Positions 1 through 3,817 of a stretch of 4,282 nucleotides of DNA are shown one piece after another. The DNA is from a virus (taxonomy: Duplodnaviria > Heunggongvirae > Uroviricota > Caudoviricetes). How positions within the stretch are numbered: the first letter of the stretch is position 1; every line of letters starts with the position of its first letter. The stretch covers positions 1-4,282 of the IMG/VR virus record IMGVR_UViG_2671180674_000006, one strand, 5' to 3'. The notes under the pieces are model-generated. The model was given only the letters and a program-made list of their open reading frames with translations. It made no database searches and was not told where the DNA came from. A program made the position numbers and the translations under genes.

Positions 1-149
1 GAACGGCGGTGAAATGGGCACTGGTAGCGATACTGGTGCCTTTTTTCCTGGTGGGATGCGTCAGCCTGGATAAGGCGCGCCAGCTTTTCGATACAGCTTC
101 TCAGGTCTGTGAAATTGTCGACGGTGTTCGGCAGTGTATGCAGAACTGA
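1..149 (+). CDS. Partial ORF (frame 3), putative small lipoprotein; may begin upstream of the window or at GTG 9-11
   Basis: Frame 3 reads TAVKWALVAILVPFFLVGCVSLDKARQLFDTASQVCEIVDGVRQCMQN with stop TGA at 147-149. From GTG 9 it would be MKWALVAILVPFFLVGC...: a basic residue, a hydrophobic stretch and an LVGC lipobox-like motif. A second frame (frame 2) is also open from the window edge and ends at TAA 71-73, so two overlapping reading frames enter the window. No homolog recognised. Confidence 0.35.
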   Translation, partial: TAVKWALVAILVPFFLVGCVSLDKARQLFDTASQVCEIVDGVRQCMQN

Positions 150-320
150 TCGCCTGTAAGAGCAGAATATTTTGCTGAAAAATGAAGGATGCGCTGGCGT
201 CTGGAAAGCATGAAATTCTGTGTTTGTGGCTACTCAATAAAATAAATTCTTTCTGTCGCCGCGAATACTCAAATGTTGATCAGCGCCCGGTGCGGCGACG
301 GGCTTCGATATCAGGAGACG

Positions 321-620
321 ATGATGGAAAAAACAGAAAACAAACCGATTGTAATTGGTGCTGATGCTGCTCCGTTTAAGTTTGAGTTGTCTCAACTGGT
401 GGAGATGCGCATCAGTGATGAATGGGGGGAGGTTAAAGCCCGCGCGCAGTATGCGGATGGCGAAAACCAGTACTTGATCCACTACAAAGCAGCTGATGGT
501 CGCGCCACGATGGAGTGGTTTGGTGAGTCAATGCTGGAAGCAACGGAAGATGATCGCCATCCTGGCTGTCCGGTATTTGCTGGTATGAAATTGCCGGAAG
601 GTGCGGTTGTTACAGAGTAA
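321..620 (+). CDS. Hypothetical small acidic protein (about 98-99 aa) in the moron position between lysis region and cos
   Basis: ORF with GGAG at 314-317 followed by tandem ATGs at 321 and 324 (324 gives the better spacing), stop TAA 618-620. Product MMEKTENKPIVIGADAAPFKFELSQLVEMRISDEWGEVKARAQYADGENQYLIHYKAADGRATMEWFGESMLEATEDDRHPGCPVFAGMKLPEGAVVTE has no signal peptide or TM segment. The listed ORF start at 273 lacks an RBS. I do not recognise the family. Confidence 0.6.
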   Translation: MMEKTENKPIVIGADAAPFKFELSQLVEMRISDEWGEVKARAQYADGENQYLIHYKAADGRATMEWFGESMLEATEDDRHPGCPVFAGMKLPEGAVVTE

Positions 621-631
621 CAGACATTACA

Positions 632-654
632 GCAGCCCTTCAGCGAGGGGCTGC
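632..654. other. GC-rich hairpin 12 nt after the stop of the 321-620 ORF
   Basis: GCAGCCC (632-638) pairs with GGGCTGC (648-654) around a 9-nt loop. On the + strand it is followed by an A-rich run, not a U-run, so it is not a canonical intrinsic terminator for the upstream gene. Confidence 0.3.
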
Positions 655-662
655 GATAATGT

Positions 663-705
663 GAGAAATAAAAAACCGGTCACAGGGAACAGCTACACAG
701 AACCG
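663..705 (-). terminator. Possible minus-strand terminator-like element (copy A of a duplicated motif)
   Basis: AAATAAAAAACCGG at 666-679; read on the minus strand this is a short CCGG-containing stem followed by TTTTTTATTT. The stem is weak with a large loop. Confidence 0.2.
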
Positions 706-796
706 GCCGGCGAAGACCGCCAATACCACCCATGCATTGATGCAACATACTAATGACAATAGCTGCTCTTGATGTAAATGCAATGTTATGTATCGA

Positions 797-841
797 CGAA
801 AATAAAAAACCGGCAGGGGAAATCCATTGAAGATTTGCCGG
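797..841 (-). terminator. Possible minus-strand terminator-like element (copy B of a duplicated motif)
   Basis: AAATAAAAAACCGG at 800-813. CCGGC (810-814) pairs with GCCGG (837-841) and AAATC (820-824) with GATTT (832-836); on the minus strand the stem is followed directly by TTTTTTATTTT. Imperfect stem, so low confidence. Confidence 0.3.
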
Positions 842-985
842 TGGCAAAAGATGGCCATGCTTTCAACTTTAGTCGCAGGGTTACGGAGTGCAACTACGAA
901 TGCTGCCGGTATATGGCTGAATGGCGTTTCAATGATGTACGTCATCTTATCTGTAAATGTTAATGATAAATGCTCTCATTTGCGC

Positions 986-1058: not shown

Positions 1059-1078
1059 GGAACCATGTCCGGTTTCAC
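1059..1078 (-). repeat. cosB R-site candidate (R3-like), inverted orientation
   Basis: + strand GGAACCATGTCCGGTTTCAC; its reverse complement GTGAAACCGGACATGGTTCC carries the AACCGGACATG core shared with the two downstream copies. Confidence 0.55.
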
Positions 1079-1206: not shown

Positions 1207-1716
1207 GTGGCTACGCAGACTGAAGTTGCCAGGCATTTGAGTCTGACCGATCGCCAGCTTCGCAGATTGCAGAAATTGCCGGGTGCCCCGGTCTCGAATA
1301 AACGGGGGCATCATGACTTGGATGCCTGGCGTGATTTTTACATATCGTATCTGAGGAGAAGTAAAAATGATGTGTCTGATGGTGATAGCGAAGAAGACTA
1401 TGAAGAAAAATTACTTATCGCCAGATGGAAATTGACTGAAGAACAGGCAATAGCACAGCAATTAAAAAATCAGGTAACTGAAGGCAGACTTATTGATTCA
1501 GGGTTCTGCGTTTTCGCCCTCAGCAAACTGGCGATGGCATTGTCCAGTACGCTTGATTCCATTCCTTTATCCATGCAGCGACAGTTCCCGGATTTAACCC
1601 CGCGTCATATTGATTATCTGAAAACCCTTATCGCAAAGGGAGCGAATCAGTGTGCGCGGGCAGGGGATAAATTGCCGGAGTTACTCGATGAATATATCCG
1701 AACAACAGTTGAATAA
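1207..1716 (+). CDS. nu1: Terminase small subunit (lambda Nu1-like), GTG start
   Basis: GTG start at 1207 preceded by GAGGTGAG (1198-1205), stop TAA 1714-1716. The C-terminal half (…GFCVFALSKLAMALSSTLDSIPLSMQRQFPDLTPRHIDYLK…LPELLDEYI…) matches my recollection of lambda Nu1 (…AFCTFVLSRIAGEIASILDGLPLSVQRRFPELENRHVDFLK…IPGLLSEYIEQSG); the N-terminal third is divergent. Lies immediately downstream of cos and overlaps the start of the large subunit, as in lambda. Confidence 0.85.
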   Translation: MATQTEVARHLSLTDRQLRRLQKLPGAPVSNKRGHHDLDAWRDFYISYLRRSKNDVSDGDSEEDYEEKLLIARWKLTEEQAIAQQLKNQVTEGRLIDSGFCVFALSKLAMALSSTLDSIPLSMQRQFPDLTPRHIDYLKTLIAKGANQCARAGDKLPELLDEYIRTTVE

Positions 1717-3604
1717 TATGATGATCGCCGTCACAACCGCATTACAGCCACTAATAAGGGCATTGCCGGTCACGCCGGTTGAATGGGCTGATCAAAATTA
1801 TTATCTGCCTAAAGAATCGTCATACGGTGAAGGAGAGTGGAAAACCCTGCCGTTTCAGGTCGCCATTATGAACAGCATGGGGCACGACAGGATCCGCACT
1901 GTTAATCTGATTAAATCGGCGCGTGTGGGTTACACCAAAATGCTGCTGGGCGTGGTCGGGTATTTTATTGAGCATAAATCCCGTAACAGCCTGCTCTTCC
2001 AGCCGACAGATTCCGCAGCTGAAGATTTTATGAAAGCGCATGTGGAAGCAACGCTCCGGGATGTCCCCAGCCTTAAAGCGTTATCGCCATGGCTGGGCAG
2101 AAAACATCGGGACAACACACTCACCCTGAAGCGTTTTTCCTCCGGCGTGGGGTTCTGGTGCCTGGGGGGGGCCGCTGCTAAAAACTACCGTGAAAAATCT
2201 GTGGATGTGGTCTGCTATGACGAACTCTCCTCGTTTGAACCGGATGTGGAAAAAGAAGGCTCGCCGACGCTGCTTGGCGATAAACGTATCGAAGGCTCGG
2301 TATGGCCTAAATCCATACGCGGCTCAACGCCAAAAATTAAAGGCTCCTGCCAGATTGAGAAAGCGGCGAATGAATCTGCGCATTTCATGCGGTTTTATGT
2401 CCCTTGCCCTCATTGCGGGGAGGCCCAGTATCTGAAGTTTGGCGATGATGCGACGCCGTTTGGCCTGAAATGGGAGAAGGGTAAACCCGAAACGGTGTAT
2501 TACCTGTGTGAACATAATGGCTGTGTGATCCGCCAGTCGGAACTTGACCAGACCGACGGATGCTGGATTTGTGACAATACCGGGATGTGGACGCGTGACG
2601 GCCTGACATTTTACAGTGCCGGTGATGAGGAAATCCCGCCACCGCGCTCAATTTCGTACCACATCTGGACGGCATACAGCCCGTTCACCACCTGGGTACA
2701 GATTGTTTATGACTGGCTCGATGCACTGAAGGATCCGAATGGCGTCAAGACGTTCATTAACACCACGCTCGGGGAGCCCTATGAAGAGGCCGTGGCAGAA
2801 AAACTGAGCTTTGAGTTGTTGCTGGAAAAAGTCTGCCACTATGGCGCGCAGGTTCCCCTGCGGGTGGTTTACCTGACCGCAGGGATAGACTCCCAGAAAG
2901 ATCGCTATGAAATTTATGTTTGGGGCTGGGCTCCCGGCGAAGAAGCCTTTCTGATTGACAAGCAAATTATCATGGGGCGACCGGAGGACGAGGACACCCT
3001 TAAACGTGTTGATGCGGTGATCCGGAAAAAATACCGCCATGCTGACGGTACTGAAATTTCCATTTCCCGCGTCTGCTGGGATACCGGTGGTATCGACCAG
3101 GACATTGTGTATCAACGTTCCAGGAAACACGGCACTTTTTTTGTGCTTCCCATAAAAGGGGCATCGGTGTATGGCAAGCCGGTGATCACCATGCCCAAAA
3201 AGCGCAACCAGCGTGGTGTGTTTTTGTGTGAGGTGGGCTCCGATACCGTCAAGGAAATGCTGTACGCCCGTTTTGCCCTGCCGGTGGTTTCTGCCAGTGA
3301 AGCAGCCCCGTATATCTTCCGTTTTCCGGATAACCCGGACATTTTTTCGGAAGAAGAGGCGCGTCAAATCGTAGCGGAAGAACTGGTGGAAAAGGTGGTT
3401 AACGGCAGGGTGAAACTGCTGTGGGATAAAAAAGGGCGACGCAACGAAGCCCTCGACTGCCTGGTATATGCTTATGCCGCCCTGCGCGTTTCGGTACAGC
3501 GGTGGCAACTGGACCTTGAAGCGCTGGCGAGGGCACGAAGAGATGAGCAGGATGAGGATGATATGAGCATGGAAGAGATCGCGGCTGCACTGAGTGGAGG
3601 ATAA
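1688..3604 (+). CDS. A: Terminase large subunit (lambda gpA-like), ATPase/endonuclease
   Basis: Start chosen at ATG 1688 (MNISEQQL…, GGAG at 1677-1680) rather than the listed GTG 1652, because lambda gpA begins MNIS…. Long collinear similarity to lambda gpA as I recall it: VEWAD-NYYLPKES, KSARVGY-KMLLGV, FWCLGG-AAKNYREKSVDV, GSPT-LGDKRIEGSVWPKSIRGSTPK, HFMRF-V-CPHCGE-QYLKFGD, IWTAYSPFTTWVQIV, YLTAGIDSQ-DRYE--VWGW-PGEE, IPIKGASVYGKPV, WDKKGRRNEALDC. Stop TAA 3602-3604. Confidence 0.95.
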   Translation: MNISEQQLNNMMIAVTTALQPLIRALPVTPVEWADQNYYLPKESSYGEGEWKTLPFQVAIMNSMGHDRIRTVNLIKSARVGYTKMLLGVVGYFIEHKSRNSLLFQPTDSAAEDFMKAHVEATLRDVPSLKALSPWLGRKHRDNTLTLKRFSSGVGFWCLGGAAAKNYREKSVDVVCYDELSSFEPDVEKEGSPTLLGDKRIEGSVWPKSIRGSTPKIKGSCQIEKAANESAHFMRFYVPCPHCGEAQYLKFGDDATPFGLKWEKGKPETVYYLCEHNGCVIRQSELDQTDGCWICDNTGMWTRDGLTFYSAGDEEIPPPRSISYHIWTAYSPFTTWVQIVYDWLDALKDPNGVKTFINTTLGEPYEEAVAEKLSFELLLEKVCHYGAQVPLRVVYLTAGIDSQKDRYEIYVWGWAPGEEAFLIDKQIIMGRPEDEDTLKRVDAVIRKKYRHADGTEISISRVCWDTGGIDQDIVYQRSRKHGTFFVLPIKGASVYGKPVITMPKKRNQRGVFLCEVGSDTVKEMLYARFALPVVSASEAAPYIFRFPDNPDIFSEEEARQIVAEELVEKVVNGRVKLLWDKKGRRNEALDCLVYAYAALRVSVQRWQLDLEALARARRDEQDEDDMSMEEIAAALSGG

Positions 3605-3607
3605 AGG

Positions 3608-3817
3608 ATGGTTTATACGCATGAAATGCTTTGCGAGGCGCGTCGGGCATTACATGAACTGATGATCGGGCGTGCTGTGGTTTCTGTCGGCAGGAACGGA
3701 CGGCAGGTTCAGTATTCGCGTGCGACGATTGGTGAACTGCGGCAATACATTGAAGAGCTGGAGAGTGCGCTGGGCGTGTCCGGACGGCGTCGCGGTCCGG
3801 TGGGAGTGAGACTGTGA
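3608..3817 (+). CDS. W: Head-tail joining / head completion protein (lambda gpW-like)
   Basis: ATG 3608 with GGAGG at 3595-3599, 3 nt after the large-subunit stop; stop TGA 3815-3817. The 69-aa product MVYTHEMLCEARRALHELMIGRAVVSVGRNGRQVQYSRATIGELRQYIEELESALGVSGRRRGPVGVRL resembles lambda gpW as I recall it (…[27 protein letters not shown]…YIAELE…RRRGPAGFYV) and is in the expected position. Confidence 0.9.
   Translation: MVYTHEMLCEARRALHELMIGRAVVSVGRNGRQVQYSRATIGELRQYIEELESALGVSGRRRGPVGVRL

What the first reader, a model, noticed from the sequence alone, without database searches (positions are those of the whole stretch)
1..149. Two overlapping reading frames at the window edge, one with a lipoprotein-type signal that is not Pro-rich
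Frame 2 ends at TAA 71-73 (…NGGEMGTGSDTGAFFPGGMRQPG) while frame 3, offset +1, continues to TGA 147-149 and encodes a hydrophobic stretch plus an LVGC lipobox followed by a short Cys-containing tail (CVSLDKARQLFDTASQVCEIVDGVRQCMQN). A +1 overlapping pair at the end of a lysis cassette resembles the i-spanin/o-spanin (Rz/Rz1) overlapped arrangement. But the mature part is not proline-rich like typical Rz1 proteins, so it may be a different small lipoprotein (for example an exclusion or outer-membrane moron). The upstream parts are outside the window, so this cannot be resolved here.
Basis: inference. Interest (0 to 1): 0.45.

Follow-up and report, generated by a model that had tools for sequence, protein, structure and literature searches.

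The report
Spanin-slot phage lipoprotein without partner
The first 149 bases of the window are the end of a real 60-codon prophage gene for a tiny outer-membrane lipoprotein that sits where phages normally keep their outer-membrane-breaking "spanin" genes; it has no inner-membrane partner, and the supposed overlapping second reading frame is not a gene.

Summary
Across 86 related loci, frame 3 varies mainly at third codon positions and never carries a stop. Frame 2 changes mostly non-synonymously and is cut by stops in most loci.

The gene starts at an invariant ATG 34 nt upstream of the window. It encodes a 60-aa prolipoprotein: a basic n-region, the lipobox LVGC, and a 30-aa helical mature peptide with three invariant Cys.

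The family is small and confined to Escherichia and Salmonella prophages. It lies after holin(s) plus endolysin in every locus whose upstream flank was held. In 33 of 82 loci it lies directly after the M15 endolysin. Phages with closely related endolysins carry Rz-like spanins in that slot.

No inner-membrane spanin (i-spanin) candidate exists in any locus or anywhere in the phiP27 genome. Kongari et al. 2018 list the phiP27 homolog as an o-spanin, but their paired "i-spanin" appears to be a spurious antisense ORF. In GER2-type Stx phages, which have canonical Rz/Rz1, the homolog is a pseudogene.

My best reading is a late-expressed outer-membrane lipoprotein that acts at the outer-membrane step of lysis without a phage partner. 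Function is untested. A conserved terminator-like hairpin lies inside the signal-peptide codons.

The parts
1..149 (+). 3' 149 nt of a 183-nt gene (60 codons plus stop) for a prolipoprotein. The window holds the last two bases of codon 12, codons 13-60, and stop TGA 147-149. The first 34 nt, including the ATG, lie outside the window.
   Evidence: ORF and translation. Codon-position test. Invariant upstream ATG and synonymous variation in codons 2-11. phrog_7528 matches positions 1-60 of 60. PGAP calls the 60-aa form in STEC409.
1..56 (+). Signal-peptide part. It comprises the end of the unusually long basic n-region (full form MSRKHWTHRMPRTAVKW), then the h-region ALVAILVPFF and the first three lipobox residues LVG. 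The lipobox L-V-G-C spans 48-59.
   Evidence: PROSITE PS00013-type lipoprotein rule passed by 38 of 39 family members and by the window's 60-aa form (Cys31). F26, L19 and V20 invariant, G30 nearly invariant.
57..146 (+). Mature 30-aa peptide CVSLDKARQLFDTASQVCEIVDGVRQCMQN. The lipidated Cys is at 57-59. Two further invariant Cys are at 108-110 and 135-137. The +2 residue is Val.
   Evidence: Three Cys invariant in 39 aligned sequences. The +2 residue is V, A or I, never Asp. Amphipathic (muH 0.53; 4% of shuffles reach it), net charge -1. AF2 predicts a single helix, pLDDT 70.
16..47 (+). RNA hairpin (11-bp stem 16-41, loop GCGA) followed by a T6 run (42-47), inside the signal-peptide codons. 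It resembles an intrinsic terminator.
   Evidence: Terminator-like scan hit. MFE -16.1 kcal/mol. Only 0.1% (codon-usage weighted) or 0.4% (uniform) of synonymous recodings of KWALVAILVPFFLV fold as stably. Hairpin retained in nearly all of 43 sequence variants.
2..73 (+). Frame-2 open stretch (equivalent to the 3' end of phiP27 CDS P27p32). It is not a gene.
   Evidence: 5 synonymous against 22 non-synonymous types, with stops in relatives. No PHROG family. No such ORF in E. coli C5.

Best explanation
Window 1-149 is the 3' end of a late-operon prophage gene encoding a 60-aa prolipoprotein. After Lgt/LspA processing at Cys31 it would give a 30-residue lipid-anchored amphipathic helix with two further conserved Cys. 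Because it has no Asp at +2, it would be sorted to the inner leaflet of the outer membrane.

The gene occupies the spanin slot of a holin-holin-endolysin cassette. It most likely acts at the last step of lysis, destabilising the outer membrane once the endolysin has removed the peptidoglycan. It has no phage-encoded inner-membrane partner, so it is not a canonical two-component spanin.

Shown here:
- The gene is real and under purifying selection.
- It has a lipoprotein signal.
- It has a fixed position after the endolysin, across different holins and endolysins.
- No i-spanin is present.
- The gene has decayed in a lineage that carries Rz/Rz1.

Inferred only: outer-membrane localisation, late expression, the role in lysis and its mechanism.
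For: 1. Real gene. The codon-position pattern fits coding and there are no stops in 86 loci. The ATG is invariant, preceded by an SD-like motif, and marks the homology breakpoint.

2. Lipoprotein. The PS00013 rule is passed by 38 of 39 members, and the +2 residue is V, A or I. Three Cys are invariant.

3. Slot.
- In all 82 loci with upstream sequence the gene follows Phage_holin_3_7, and Phage_holin_8 in 79 of them, plus an endolysin.
- In 33 of 82 loci it lies directly after the M15 endolysin, in the intergenic context TGATAACCAGGTGTGTTATG.
- After de-duplication, 56 loci have an M15 endolysin and 25 a GH108-type endolysin.
- Divergent members keep the slot: P0134 follows a lambda-S-type holin plus M15, and P0121 follows Phage_holin_8, Phage_holin_3_7 and M15.
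- In the window's own lineage an HNH homing endonuclease is inserted between endolysin and lipoprotein.

4. Phages with 70-80% identical endolysins have an Rz-like spanin or a DUF2570 gene directly after the endolysin (P88, 9NA).

5. The small TM gene tm37 is followed at the same GGTGGTGAnATG junction either by Rz/Rz1 (GER2) or by this lipoprotein.

6. None of 82 distinct intact loci carries an Rz or Rz1 homolog or any other plausible lipoprotein except Bor. The scan does find Rz1 in the positive control.

7. In GER2-type Stx phages with canonical Rz/Rz1, the homolog carries three C-to-T nonsense codons.

8. phiP27 was isolated as a phage. Its genome has no i-spanin-like ORF, and its only other lipoprotein is a 276-aa early-region protein.

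9. Pinto et al. 2021 found Rz in 277 of 279 Stx phages. The metallopeptidase-endolysin pham had two members (PMC8136144).

10. No sigma-70-like promoter was found near the gene in the window or in L003. This fits expression from the late operon.
Against: - No experiment bears on this gene.
- A 30-residue peptide cannot span the periplasm, and without an inner-membrane anchor it cannot fuse membranes the way spanins do. The mechanism is therefore unknown.
- The mature peptide is not cationic (net charge -1), unlike the phiKT disruptin.
- There is no homology to colicin lysis proteins or to any Pfam or NCBIfam family.
- Position alone is ambiguous. Lambdoid morons such as bor also sit just downstream of lysis genes.
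- In about half the loci other small genes and a terminator-like hairpin separate the endolysin from this gene.
- The pseudogene-with-Rz/Rz1 observation is one lineage, hence a single evolutionary event.
- A terminator-like hairpin inside the gene could limit its expression.
Confidence: 0.5

Rival explanations
1. It is the o-spanin of a canonical two-component spanin. The partner i-spanin would be either overlapped in frame 2 or a separate upstream gene (SpaninDB: phiP27 20348-20542).
For: Kongari et al. 2018 list phiP27 as a 'separated' two-component spanin, with the o-spanin at 20706-20861 (this gene) and a 64-aa i-spanin at 20348-20542. The gene has a lipobox, conserved periplasmic Cys and a position in the lysis cassette.
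Against: - Frame 2 is not coding.
- The SpaninDB i-spanin is a TTG-start ORF found only in phiP27-identical loci (3 of 82). It has no PHROG family.
- It lies antisense to a 90-aa ORF that is conserved at 46% protein identity in another locus and belongs to phrog_36812.
- In 33 loci there is no room for any gene between the endolysin and the lipoprotein.
- No ORF with an N-terminal TM segment and at least 50 further residues is conserved near the gene or found anywhere in phiP27.
- The combined periplasmic length of 62 aa is the shortest outlier of the whole survey.
Confidence: 0.1
2. It is a moron-type or accessory lipoprotein unrelated to lysis. Examples would be superinfection exclusion by receptor blocking (like Cor or Llp) or a host-fitness factor (like Bor) that merely rides behind the lysis genes.
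For: - Lambdoid phages commonly carry morons just after the lysis genes.
- The region between the endolysin and this gene is a hot spot of insertions: HNH, a 93-aa gene, small TM genes and a reverse-strand gene.
- In some loci a terminator-like hairpin precedes the tm37-lipoprotein pair.
- The family is narrow and strain-variable.
Against: - The gene is on the late-operon strand, and in 33 loci it is tightly coupled to the endolysin.
- No own promoter was detected.
- Bor co-occurs downstream on the opposite strand in 8 loci, so this is not the Bor equivalent.
- Known exclusion lipoproteins sit next to tail or receptor-binding genes (own knowledge).
- Linkage to holin-endolysin cassettes is conserved across about 40%-identity members, with three different holin/endolysin combinations.
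- The gene has decayed where Rz/Rz1 is present.
Confidence: 0.25
3. It is a lysis-timing or regulatory factor (an antiholin-like or endolysin-modulating lipoprotein) rather than an outer-membrane disruptor.
For: The gene is always linked to holin and endolysin genes. The basic n-region MSRKHWTHR is conserved, and a second in-frame Met at codon 10 is present in 44 of 48 variants. This loosely recalls dual-start lysis regulators.
Against: - No known antiholin is an outer-membrane lipoprotein (own knowledge).
- The second Met is not invariant.
- The cassette already has two holin-family genes that could form a holin/antiholin pair.
- The slot is that of spanins in related cassettes.
Confidence: 0.1
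4. The conserved DNA is primarily an RNA element (an intrinsic terminator or attenuator at 16-47), and the ORF is incidental.
For: The hairpin plus U-tract is significantly more stable than synonymous recodings allow, and it is conserved.
Against: The codon-position pattern, the lack of stops, three invariant Cys and a conserved lipobox extend over 180 nt, far beyond the hairpin. The hairpin is better read as an extra layer on a real gene.
Confidence: 0.03

Closest known systems
Lambda Rz1 and other o-spanins; specifically the SpaninDB entry 'PhiP27 o-spanin' (Kongari et al. 2018, PMC6139136)
   Same: It is a small outer-membrane-type lipoprotein encoded in the lysis cassette downstream of the endolysin, with conserved periplasmic Cys. 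The phiP27 homolog (20706-20861) is the very gene listed in SpaninDB.
   Different: It has no i-spanin partner, whether embedded, overlapped or separated. The mature part is only 30 aa, helical and not Pro-rich. There is no sequence similarity to any other o-spanin family: it is a singleton in the survey, and an HMM search of 1.84 billion proteins finds only its own small family.
Unimolecular spanins (T1 gp11 type)
   Same: A single gene in the spanin slot with an N-terminal lipoprotein signal.
   Different: u-spanins have a C-terminal TM anchor and a periplasmic domain of about 100 aa. This protein ends 29 residues after the lipidated Cys, with no second hydrophobic segment.
Colicin lysis / bacteriocin release proteins (Pfam Lysis_col)
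   Same: The architecture is the same: a precursor of about 45-60 aa with a lipobox, a mature lipopeptide of about 28-33 aa, and co-expression with a product that must cross the envelope. Those proteins permeabilise the outer membrane without an inner-membrane partner, through OmpLA activation (own knowledge).
   Different: There is no detectable homology (no Pfam hit at E<=0.1). Three conserved Cys and the helical character are absent from BRPs. The genetic context is phage rather than Col plasmid.
phiKT gp28 'disruptin' (Holt et al.; bioRxiv 10.1101/515445)
   Same: A precedent for a small, non-spanin protein that performs the outer-membrane step of lysis in a phage without spanins.
   Different: gp28 is a cationic amphipathic peptide without a lipid anchor. 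This peptide is lipidated by prediction and has net charge -1.
Lambda Bor / phi80 Cor / T5 Llp (prophage moron and exclusion lipoproteins)
   Same: Small prophage-encoded outer-membrane lipoproteins. bor lies just downstream of the lysis genes.
   Different: There is no homology. Bor is present in addition, on the opposite strand, in 8 loci. Those proteins are 60-80 aa when mature and are not translationally linked to an endolysin.

Membership tests
Bacterial lipoprotein (Lgt/LspA substrate) | N-terminal signal peptide with basic n-region, hydrophobic h-region and lipobox [LVI][ASTVI][GAS]C, with Cys at position 15-35 | tested here: met
   The PS00013-type rule is passed by the window's 60-aa form (Cys31) and by 38 of 39 aligned members. 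Cys31 is invariant and G30 nearly invariant. LipoP and SignalP were not available, and lipidation was not tested experimentally.
Bacterial lipoprotein (Lgt/LspA substrate) | Outer-membrane sorting: no Asp at +2 (Lol avoidance rule) | tested here: met
   The +2 residue is V (31), A (5) or I (2) in the family. Localisation itself is not testable here.
Two-component spanin, o-spanin subunit (Rz1-like) | Outer-membrane lipoprotein gene located in the lysis cassette | tested here: met
   The gene lies downstream of holin(s) and endolysin in all 82 loci with upstream sequence.
Two-component spanin, o-spanin subunit (Rz1-like) | Cognate i-spanin gene (N-terminal TM segment plus periplasmic, usually coiled-coil domain) that embeds, overlaps or adjoins it | tested here: not met
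   No such ORF is conserved within about 3 kb upstream or 2.5 kb downstream of the gene in 82 loci. There are no Rz homologs and none in the whole phiP27 genome. Frame 2 is non-coding. The SpaninDB i-spanin is an antisense ORF of phrog_36812.
Two-component spanin, o-spanin subunit (Rz1-like) | Periplasmic domains together long enough to bridge inner and outer membranes | tested here: not met
   The mature part is 30 aa and no partner exists. Even with the SpaninDB partner the total is 62 aa, the minimum of 528 systems.
Two-component spanin, o-spanin subunit (Rz1-like) | Required for outer-membrane disruption (spherical-cell phenotype when absent; complements Rz/Rz1 defects) | not testable with these tools
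   This needs genetics. The only indirect hint is pseudogenisation where Rz/Rz1 is present.
Unimolecular spanin (T1 gp11-like) | N-terminal lipobox plus C-terminal transmembrane domain | tested here: not met
   There is a single hydrophobic segment, at residue 15, and the protein ends at residue 60.
Colicin lysis protein / BRP (Pfam Lysis_col) | Sequence membership in the family | tested here: not met
   No Pfam hit at E<=0.1 and no NCBIfam hit at E<=1.
Colicin lysis protein / BRP (Pfam Lysis_col) | Mature lipopeptide of about 30 aa that permeabilises the outer membrane on its own, dependent on OmpLA | not testable with these tools
   The size and architecture match. The activity is untested.
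phrog_7528 (PHROGs, unknown function) | Full-length HMM match | tested here: met
   E = 1.2e-37, residues 1-60 matching profile positions 1-60 of 60.

The most novel reading that the evidence does not exclude
This 30-residue lipid-anchored helix is a third kind of phage outer-membrane disruptor, neither spanin nor cationic disruptin. It would be a stand-alone outer-membrane lipoprotein that breaks or permeabilises the membrane after endolysin action. Possible routes are activation of OmpLA in the manner of colicin lysis proteins, or disulfide-linked oligomers that perturb the inner leaflet. Its expression might be gated by an intragenic terminator that only Q-modified RNA polymerase reads through.
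Probability: 0.3. Interest if true: 0.75.

Novelty: new variant of a known kind. Interest (0 to 1): 0.55.

Why it matters
How phages without recognisable spanins breach the outer membrane is an open question; about 13% of phages of Gram-negative hosts in the 2018 survey fall in that class.

This gene family gives a concrete, easily testable candidate in E. coli. It is a 30-aa lipoprotein in the spanin slot of inducible Stx2e and Stx2k phages (phiP27, phiSTEC1575-Stx2k). DNA matching window 1-700 occurs in 320 of 5426 complete E. coli genomes.

The analysis also corrects two database records. phiP27 CDS P27p32 is annotated in the wrong frame. The SpaninDB phiP27 i-spanin is probably a non-gene, which removes the shortest outlier from the published spanin length distribution.

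If the lipoprotein alone disrupts the outer membrane, it would link phage lysis mechanistically to colicin release. It would also be a minimal outer-membrane-permeabilising lipopeptide.

Tried and rejected
- Pfam and NCBIfam scans of the lipoprotein and of its small neighbours (tm37, the 93-aa and 99-aa ORFs) gave no hits. PHROGs gave only families of unknown function.
- A profile HMM search of 1.84 billion representative proteins found 24 hits, all members of the same small family or fragments and fusions. It gave no link to any known o-spanin or lipoprotein family.
- AlphaFold2 on the 39-sequence alignment gave one long helix at pLDDT 70. This was too featureless for a fold search, so none was run.
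- The genome-contig scan returned a single Salmonella locus, so it was of little use. The viral-contig scans were the productive source.
- tm37 as a mini i-spanin was rejected. It is present in only 41 of 82 loci, is 37-48 aa with almost no extramembrane part, and it also precedes canonical Rz in GER2.
- GTG at window 9 as the start, suggested by a GTGA overlap with a frame-1 stop, was rejected. Homology and synonymous variation extend upstream to the invariant ATG.
- A Hok/Gef-like toxin was considered because of a 'CEI' motif. It was dropped because the spacing differs and no family hit was found.
- Literature searches for 'orphan o-spanin' and 'spaninless' found no experimental work on this gene.

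Full report
**What the window is.** The 4282-nt window comes from a lambdoid prophage.
- It begins at the tail end of the lysis region (1-149).
- A 99-aa ORF of unknown function follows (323-620, phrog_1935), then a strong terminator-like hairpin.
- Next come an ORF-poor AT-rich stretch and a cos-like region with three copies of AACCGGACATG (1064-1162).
- Lambda-type head genes follow: terS 1207-1716, terL about 1688-3604, a gpW-like gene 3608-3817, and the start of the portal gene.
- The closest complete genomes over the whole window (93.6% identity) are Stx2e/k-type prophages of STEC strains.
- The first 660 nt are 96.5% identical to Stx2e phage phiP27.

**Check of the observation.** I collected 86 homologous loci from E. 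coli genomes, phage records, metagenome contigs and IMG/VR. I then asked which frame evolves like a protein.
- Frame 3 has 18/14/36 variable columns at codon positions 1/2/3, 48 extra synonymous codon types against 31 extra amino-acid types, and no stop in any sequence.
- Frame 2 has 5 synonymous against 22 non-synonymous types. Its variation is concentrated at its own first codon position, which is frame 3's third.
- In most loci frame 2 is closed by a stop about 35 codons upstream of TAA 71-73, leaving at best a 19-codon ORF from the internal ATG.

Frame 2 is what the 2002 phiP27 annotation called L32/P27p32. It has no PHROG family and is not an ORF in E. coli C5. So one frame is a gene and the other is not.

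**The gene.** Sequences from loci with five or more different upstream contexts become alignable exactly at an ATG 34 nt upstream of window base 1.
- That ATG is invariant in 48 of 48 unique sequences.
- It is preceded by AGGTG- or GGTGG-type Shine-Dalgarno motifs.
- It is followed by codons that vary synonymously: Arg CGA/AGA/CGT/CGG, Lys AAA/AAG, Thr ACA/ACG and His CAC/CAT.
- The second in-frame ATG, 7 nt upstream of the window, is not invariant.

The product is therefore 60 aa: MSRKHWTHRMPRTAVKWALVAILVPFFLVGC|VSLDKARQLFDTASQVCEIVDGVRQCMQN. PGAP calls this form in STEC409, and phrog_7528 matches positions 1-60 of 60.
- The sequence passes the PROSITE-type lipoprotein rule, with Cys at position 31. 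The +2 residue is Val (V, A or I across the family, never Asp), so outer-membrane sorting is predicted.
- Cys31, Cys48 and Cys57 are invariant in 39 aligned members.
- The mature 30-mer is amphipathic with net charge -1.
- It is predicted helical (83% helix in the table of Kongari et al.).

The family is tiny. The word-indexed database gave 132 proteins, all from Escherichia, Salmonella or phage metagenomes and all named 'hypothetical' or 'lipoprotein'. An exhaustive profile search of 1.84 billion representatives gave 24 hits, with no link to any other family. Pfam and NCBIfam gave nothing.

**Context.** In all 82 loci that hold upstream sequence, the gene follows a Phage_holin_3_7 gene, a Phage_holin_8 gene in 79 of them, and an endolysin.
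- In 33 of 82 loci it comes directly after the M15 endolysin.
- In the others the interval has picked up variable inserts: a small TM protein ('tm37', phrog_4493/1115; 41 loci), a second small TM protein (17 loci), a 93-aa ORF, a reverse-strand 90-aa ORF (phiP27), or an HNH homing endonuclease. The HNH insert is found in contigs L003 and L004, which encode a lipoprotein identical to the window's.
- After de-duplication, 56 loci have an M15 endolysin and 25 a GH108-type endolysin.
- Two divergent members (about 40% identity in the mature part) keep the slot. P0134 lies 3 nt after an M15 endolysin that follows a lambda-S-type holin downstream of Q. P0121 lies 6 nt after the M15 endolysin.
- In phages whose endolysins are 70-80% identical to this one (P88, 9NA), the gene immediately after the endolysin is DUF2570 (P88) or 'Rz-like spanin' preceded by a small membrane protein (9NA).

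This is the spanin slot.

**Is there a partner?** I scanned every locus for lipoprotein signals and for ORFs with TM segments.
- The only other credible lipoprotein is Bor, on the opposite strand just downstream, in 8 loci.
- No ORF with an N-terminal TM segment and a periplasmic domain is conserved.
- tblastn with lambda Rz and with GER2 Rz and Rz1 found hits only in GER2-type loci. As a positive control, the lipobox scan does find Rz1 there.
- The complete phiP27 genome has no i-spanin-like ORF. Its only other lipoprotein is the 276-aa L05 near the integrase gene.

**Relation to the literature.** Kongari et al. 2018 (PMC6139136) list phiP27 as a 'separated' two-component spanin. Their i-spanin is at 20348-20542 (64 aa, 32 periplasmic residues). 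Their o-spanin is at 20706-20861 (51 aa, 30 mature residues, 83% helix). They note it as the shortest system of the whole survey, at 62 periplasmic residues in total.
- The o-spanin coordinates are exactly this gene, read from its second ATG.
- The 'i-spanin' is a TTG-start ORF found only in phiP27-identical loci (3 of 82), and it has no PHROG family.
- It lies antisense to a 90-aa ORF that is conserved at 46% protein identity at the same place in another prophage and belongs to phrog_36812.

I conclude the i-spanin call is spurious and the lipoprotein is an orphan. Pinto et al. 2021 found Rz in 277 of 279 Stx phages, and the metallopeptidase-endolysin pham had two members. That is consistent with phiP27-type phages lacking Rz.

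**A natural experiment.** In GER2-type Stx phages the cassette is S, R, tm37, Rz/Rz1. About 1.2 kb downstream lies a copy of the lipoprotein gene with three in-frame stops, each a C-to-T change of CGA or CAG. The rest of the sequence, including the lipobox and the Cys codons, is still recognisable.
- After de-duplication, none of 82 intact loci has Rz. All four pseudogene loci that extend far enough upstream have Rz/Rz1.
- This is what redundancy would predict. It is one lineage, though, and so one event.
- tm37 is joined by the same GGTGGTGAnATG junction either to Rz (GER2) or to the lipoprotein (C5 type).

**Mechanism.** The following are shown: a real, selected gene; a lipoprotein signal; the spanin slot; no partner. 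The rest is inference.

The gene lies on the late-operon strand. It is often separated from the endolysin stop by only 14 nt, and no promoter-like site was found. So it should be made late, together with holin and endolysin.

Once processed and sorted by Lol, a 30-residue amphipathic helix with two free Cys would sit on the inner leaflet of the outer membrane. It cannot bridge the periplasm or fuse membranes as spanins do. If it performs the outer-membrane step, it must act locally. It might perturb the inner leaflet as a disulfide-linked oligomer. Or it might trigger a host factor, as colicin lysis proteins of the same size and architecture do through OmpLA (own knowledge).

I put about 0.5 on a role in the outer-membrane step of lysis. 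I put about 0.25 on an unrelated moron or exclusion lipoprotein, and about 0.1 each on a canonical spanin with an unrecognised partner and on a lysis-timing role.

**An extra layer.** Window 16-41 forms an 11-bp RNA hairpin followed by U6, inside the codons for WALVAILVPFF. Only 0.1-0.4% of synonymous recodings of the same peptide fold as stably. The hairpin is kept in nearly all 43 sequence variants, including a divergent member. It looks like an intrinsic terminator inside the gene. It might be a block to read-through transcription in the lysogen that Q-modified polymerase overrides, but this is speculation.

**Verdict.** The gene family is already catalogued, though probably mis-paired, as a singleton o-spanin. 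What is new here:
- There is no i-spanin.
- The gene is a fixed occupant of the spanin slot across different holins and endolysins.
- It decays where Rz/Rz1 is present.
- It carries a selected intragenic hairpin.

I rate it a new variant of a known kind. Interest is moderate, and the hypothesis is directly testable.

Noticed in passing
window 16-47: An 11-bp RNA hairpin plus a U6 run lies inside the signal-peptide codons. MFE is -16.1 kcal/mol, more stable than 99.6-99.9% of synonymous recodings, and the hairpin is conserved across family variants. It may be an intragenic terminator or attenuator.
   Followed up: partly
window 1064-1074 (inverted), 1122-1132, 1152-1162: Three exact copies of AACCGGACATG lie just upstream of the small terminase gene (1207). 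They look like cosB-type terminase small-subunit binding sites. A direct repeat TTGTGAGGTGAG / TTGCGAGGTGAG at 1176-1204 abuts the terS start.
   Followed up: partly
window 323-620 and 633-657: A 99-aa ORF (MMEKTENKPIVIG...; phrog_1935, unknown function, no Pfam or NCBIfam hit) is followed by a GC-rich terminator-like hairpin. It accompanies the lipoprotein gene in only a subset of loci.
   Followed up: partly
window 660-960: An ORF-poor, AT-rich stretch contains AAATAAAAAACCGG twice (666-679 and 800-813). No gene or function was assigned.
   Followed up: no
L003 2527-3015 and L004 609-1097 (upstream of the window's equivalent): In the contigs that encode a lipoprotein identical to the window's, a 162-aa NUMOD4/HNH_3 homing endonuclease gene sits between a variant endolysin (131 aa; the N-terminal half is M15-like, the C-terminal half differs) and the lipoprotein gene.
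   Followed up: partly
L091 (phage GER2) 2989-3171; L146-L157: A lipoprotein pseudogene with three C-to-T nonsense codons occurs in Stx phages that carry canonical Rz/Rz1. It is unannotated in the GER2 record.
   Followed up: yes
L002 4852-4965; L091 1669-1782: A small TM protein family (tm37, MKGIEVETPASLDLTRAAAFAIRLVAVAVLIWAVRWW; phrog_4493/1115/3246, unknown function) sits between the endolysin and either Rz or the lipoprotein, with the same GGTGGTGAnATG junction. Both downstream genes begin M-[S/N]-R. Its role in lysis is unknown.
   Followed up: partly
L001 / NC_003356.1 20348-20542 and 20630-20785: Two probable non-genes are in public resources. One is the SpaninDB phiP27 'i-spanin', which is antisense to a conserved 90-aa ORF of phrog_36812 that is itself unannotated in the record. 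The other is CDS P27p32, which is in the wrong frame over the lipoprotein gene.
   Followed up: yes
PP818812.1 (Actinobacillus phage vB_Apl-pPE4) 18917-20332: A record labelled as an Actinobacillus pleuropneumoniae phage carries an endolysin and lipoprotein 93-95% identical to E. coli prophage sequence. The host assignment looks doubtful.
   Followed up: no
L164 1684-2248 (STEC409) and L090 384-948: The Stx2k-type prophages carry a second, apparently partial lysis module (a class II holin plus a YdfR family protein) upstream of the holin-holin-M15 cassette.
   Followed up: no
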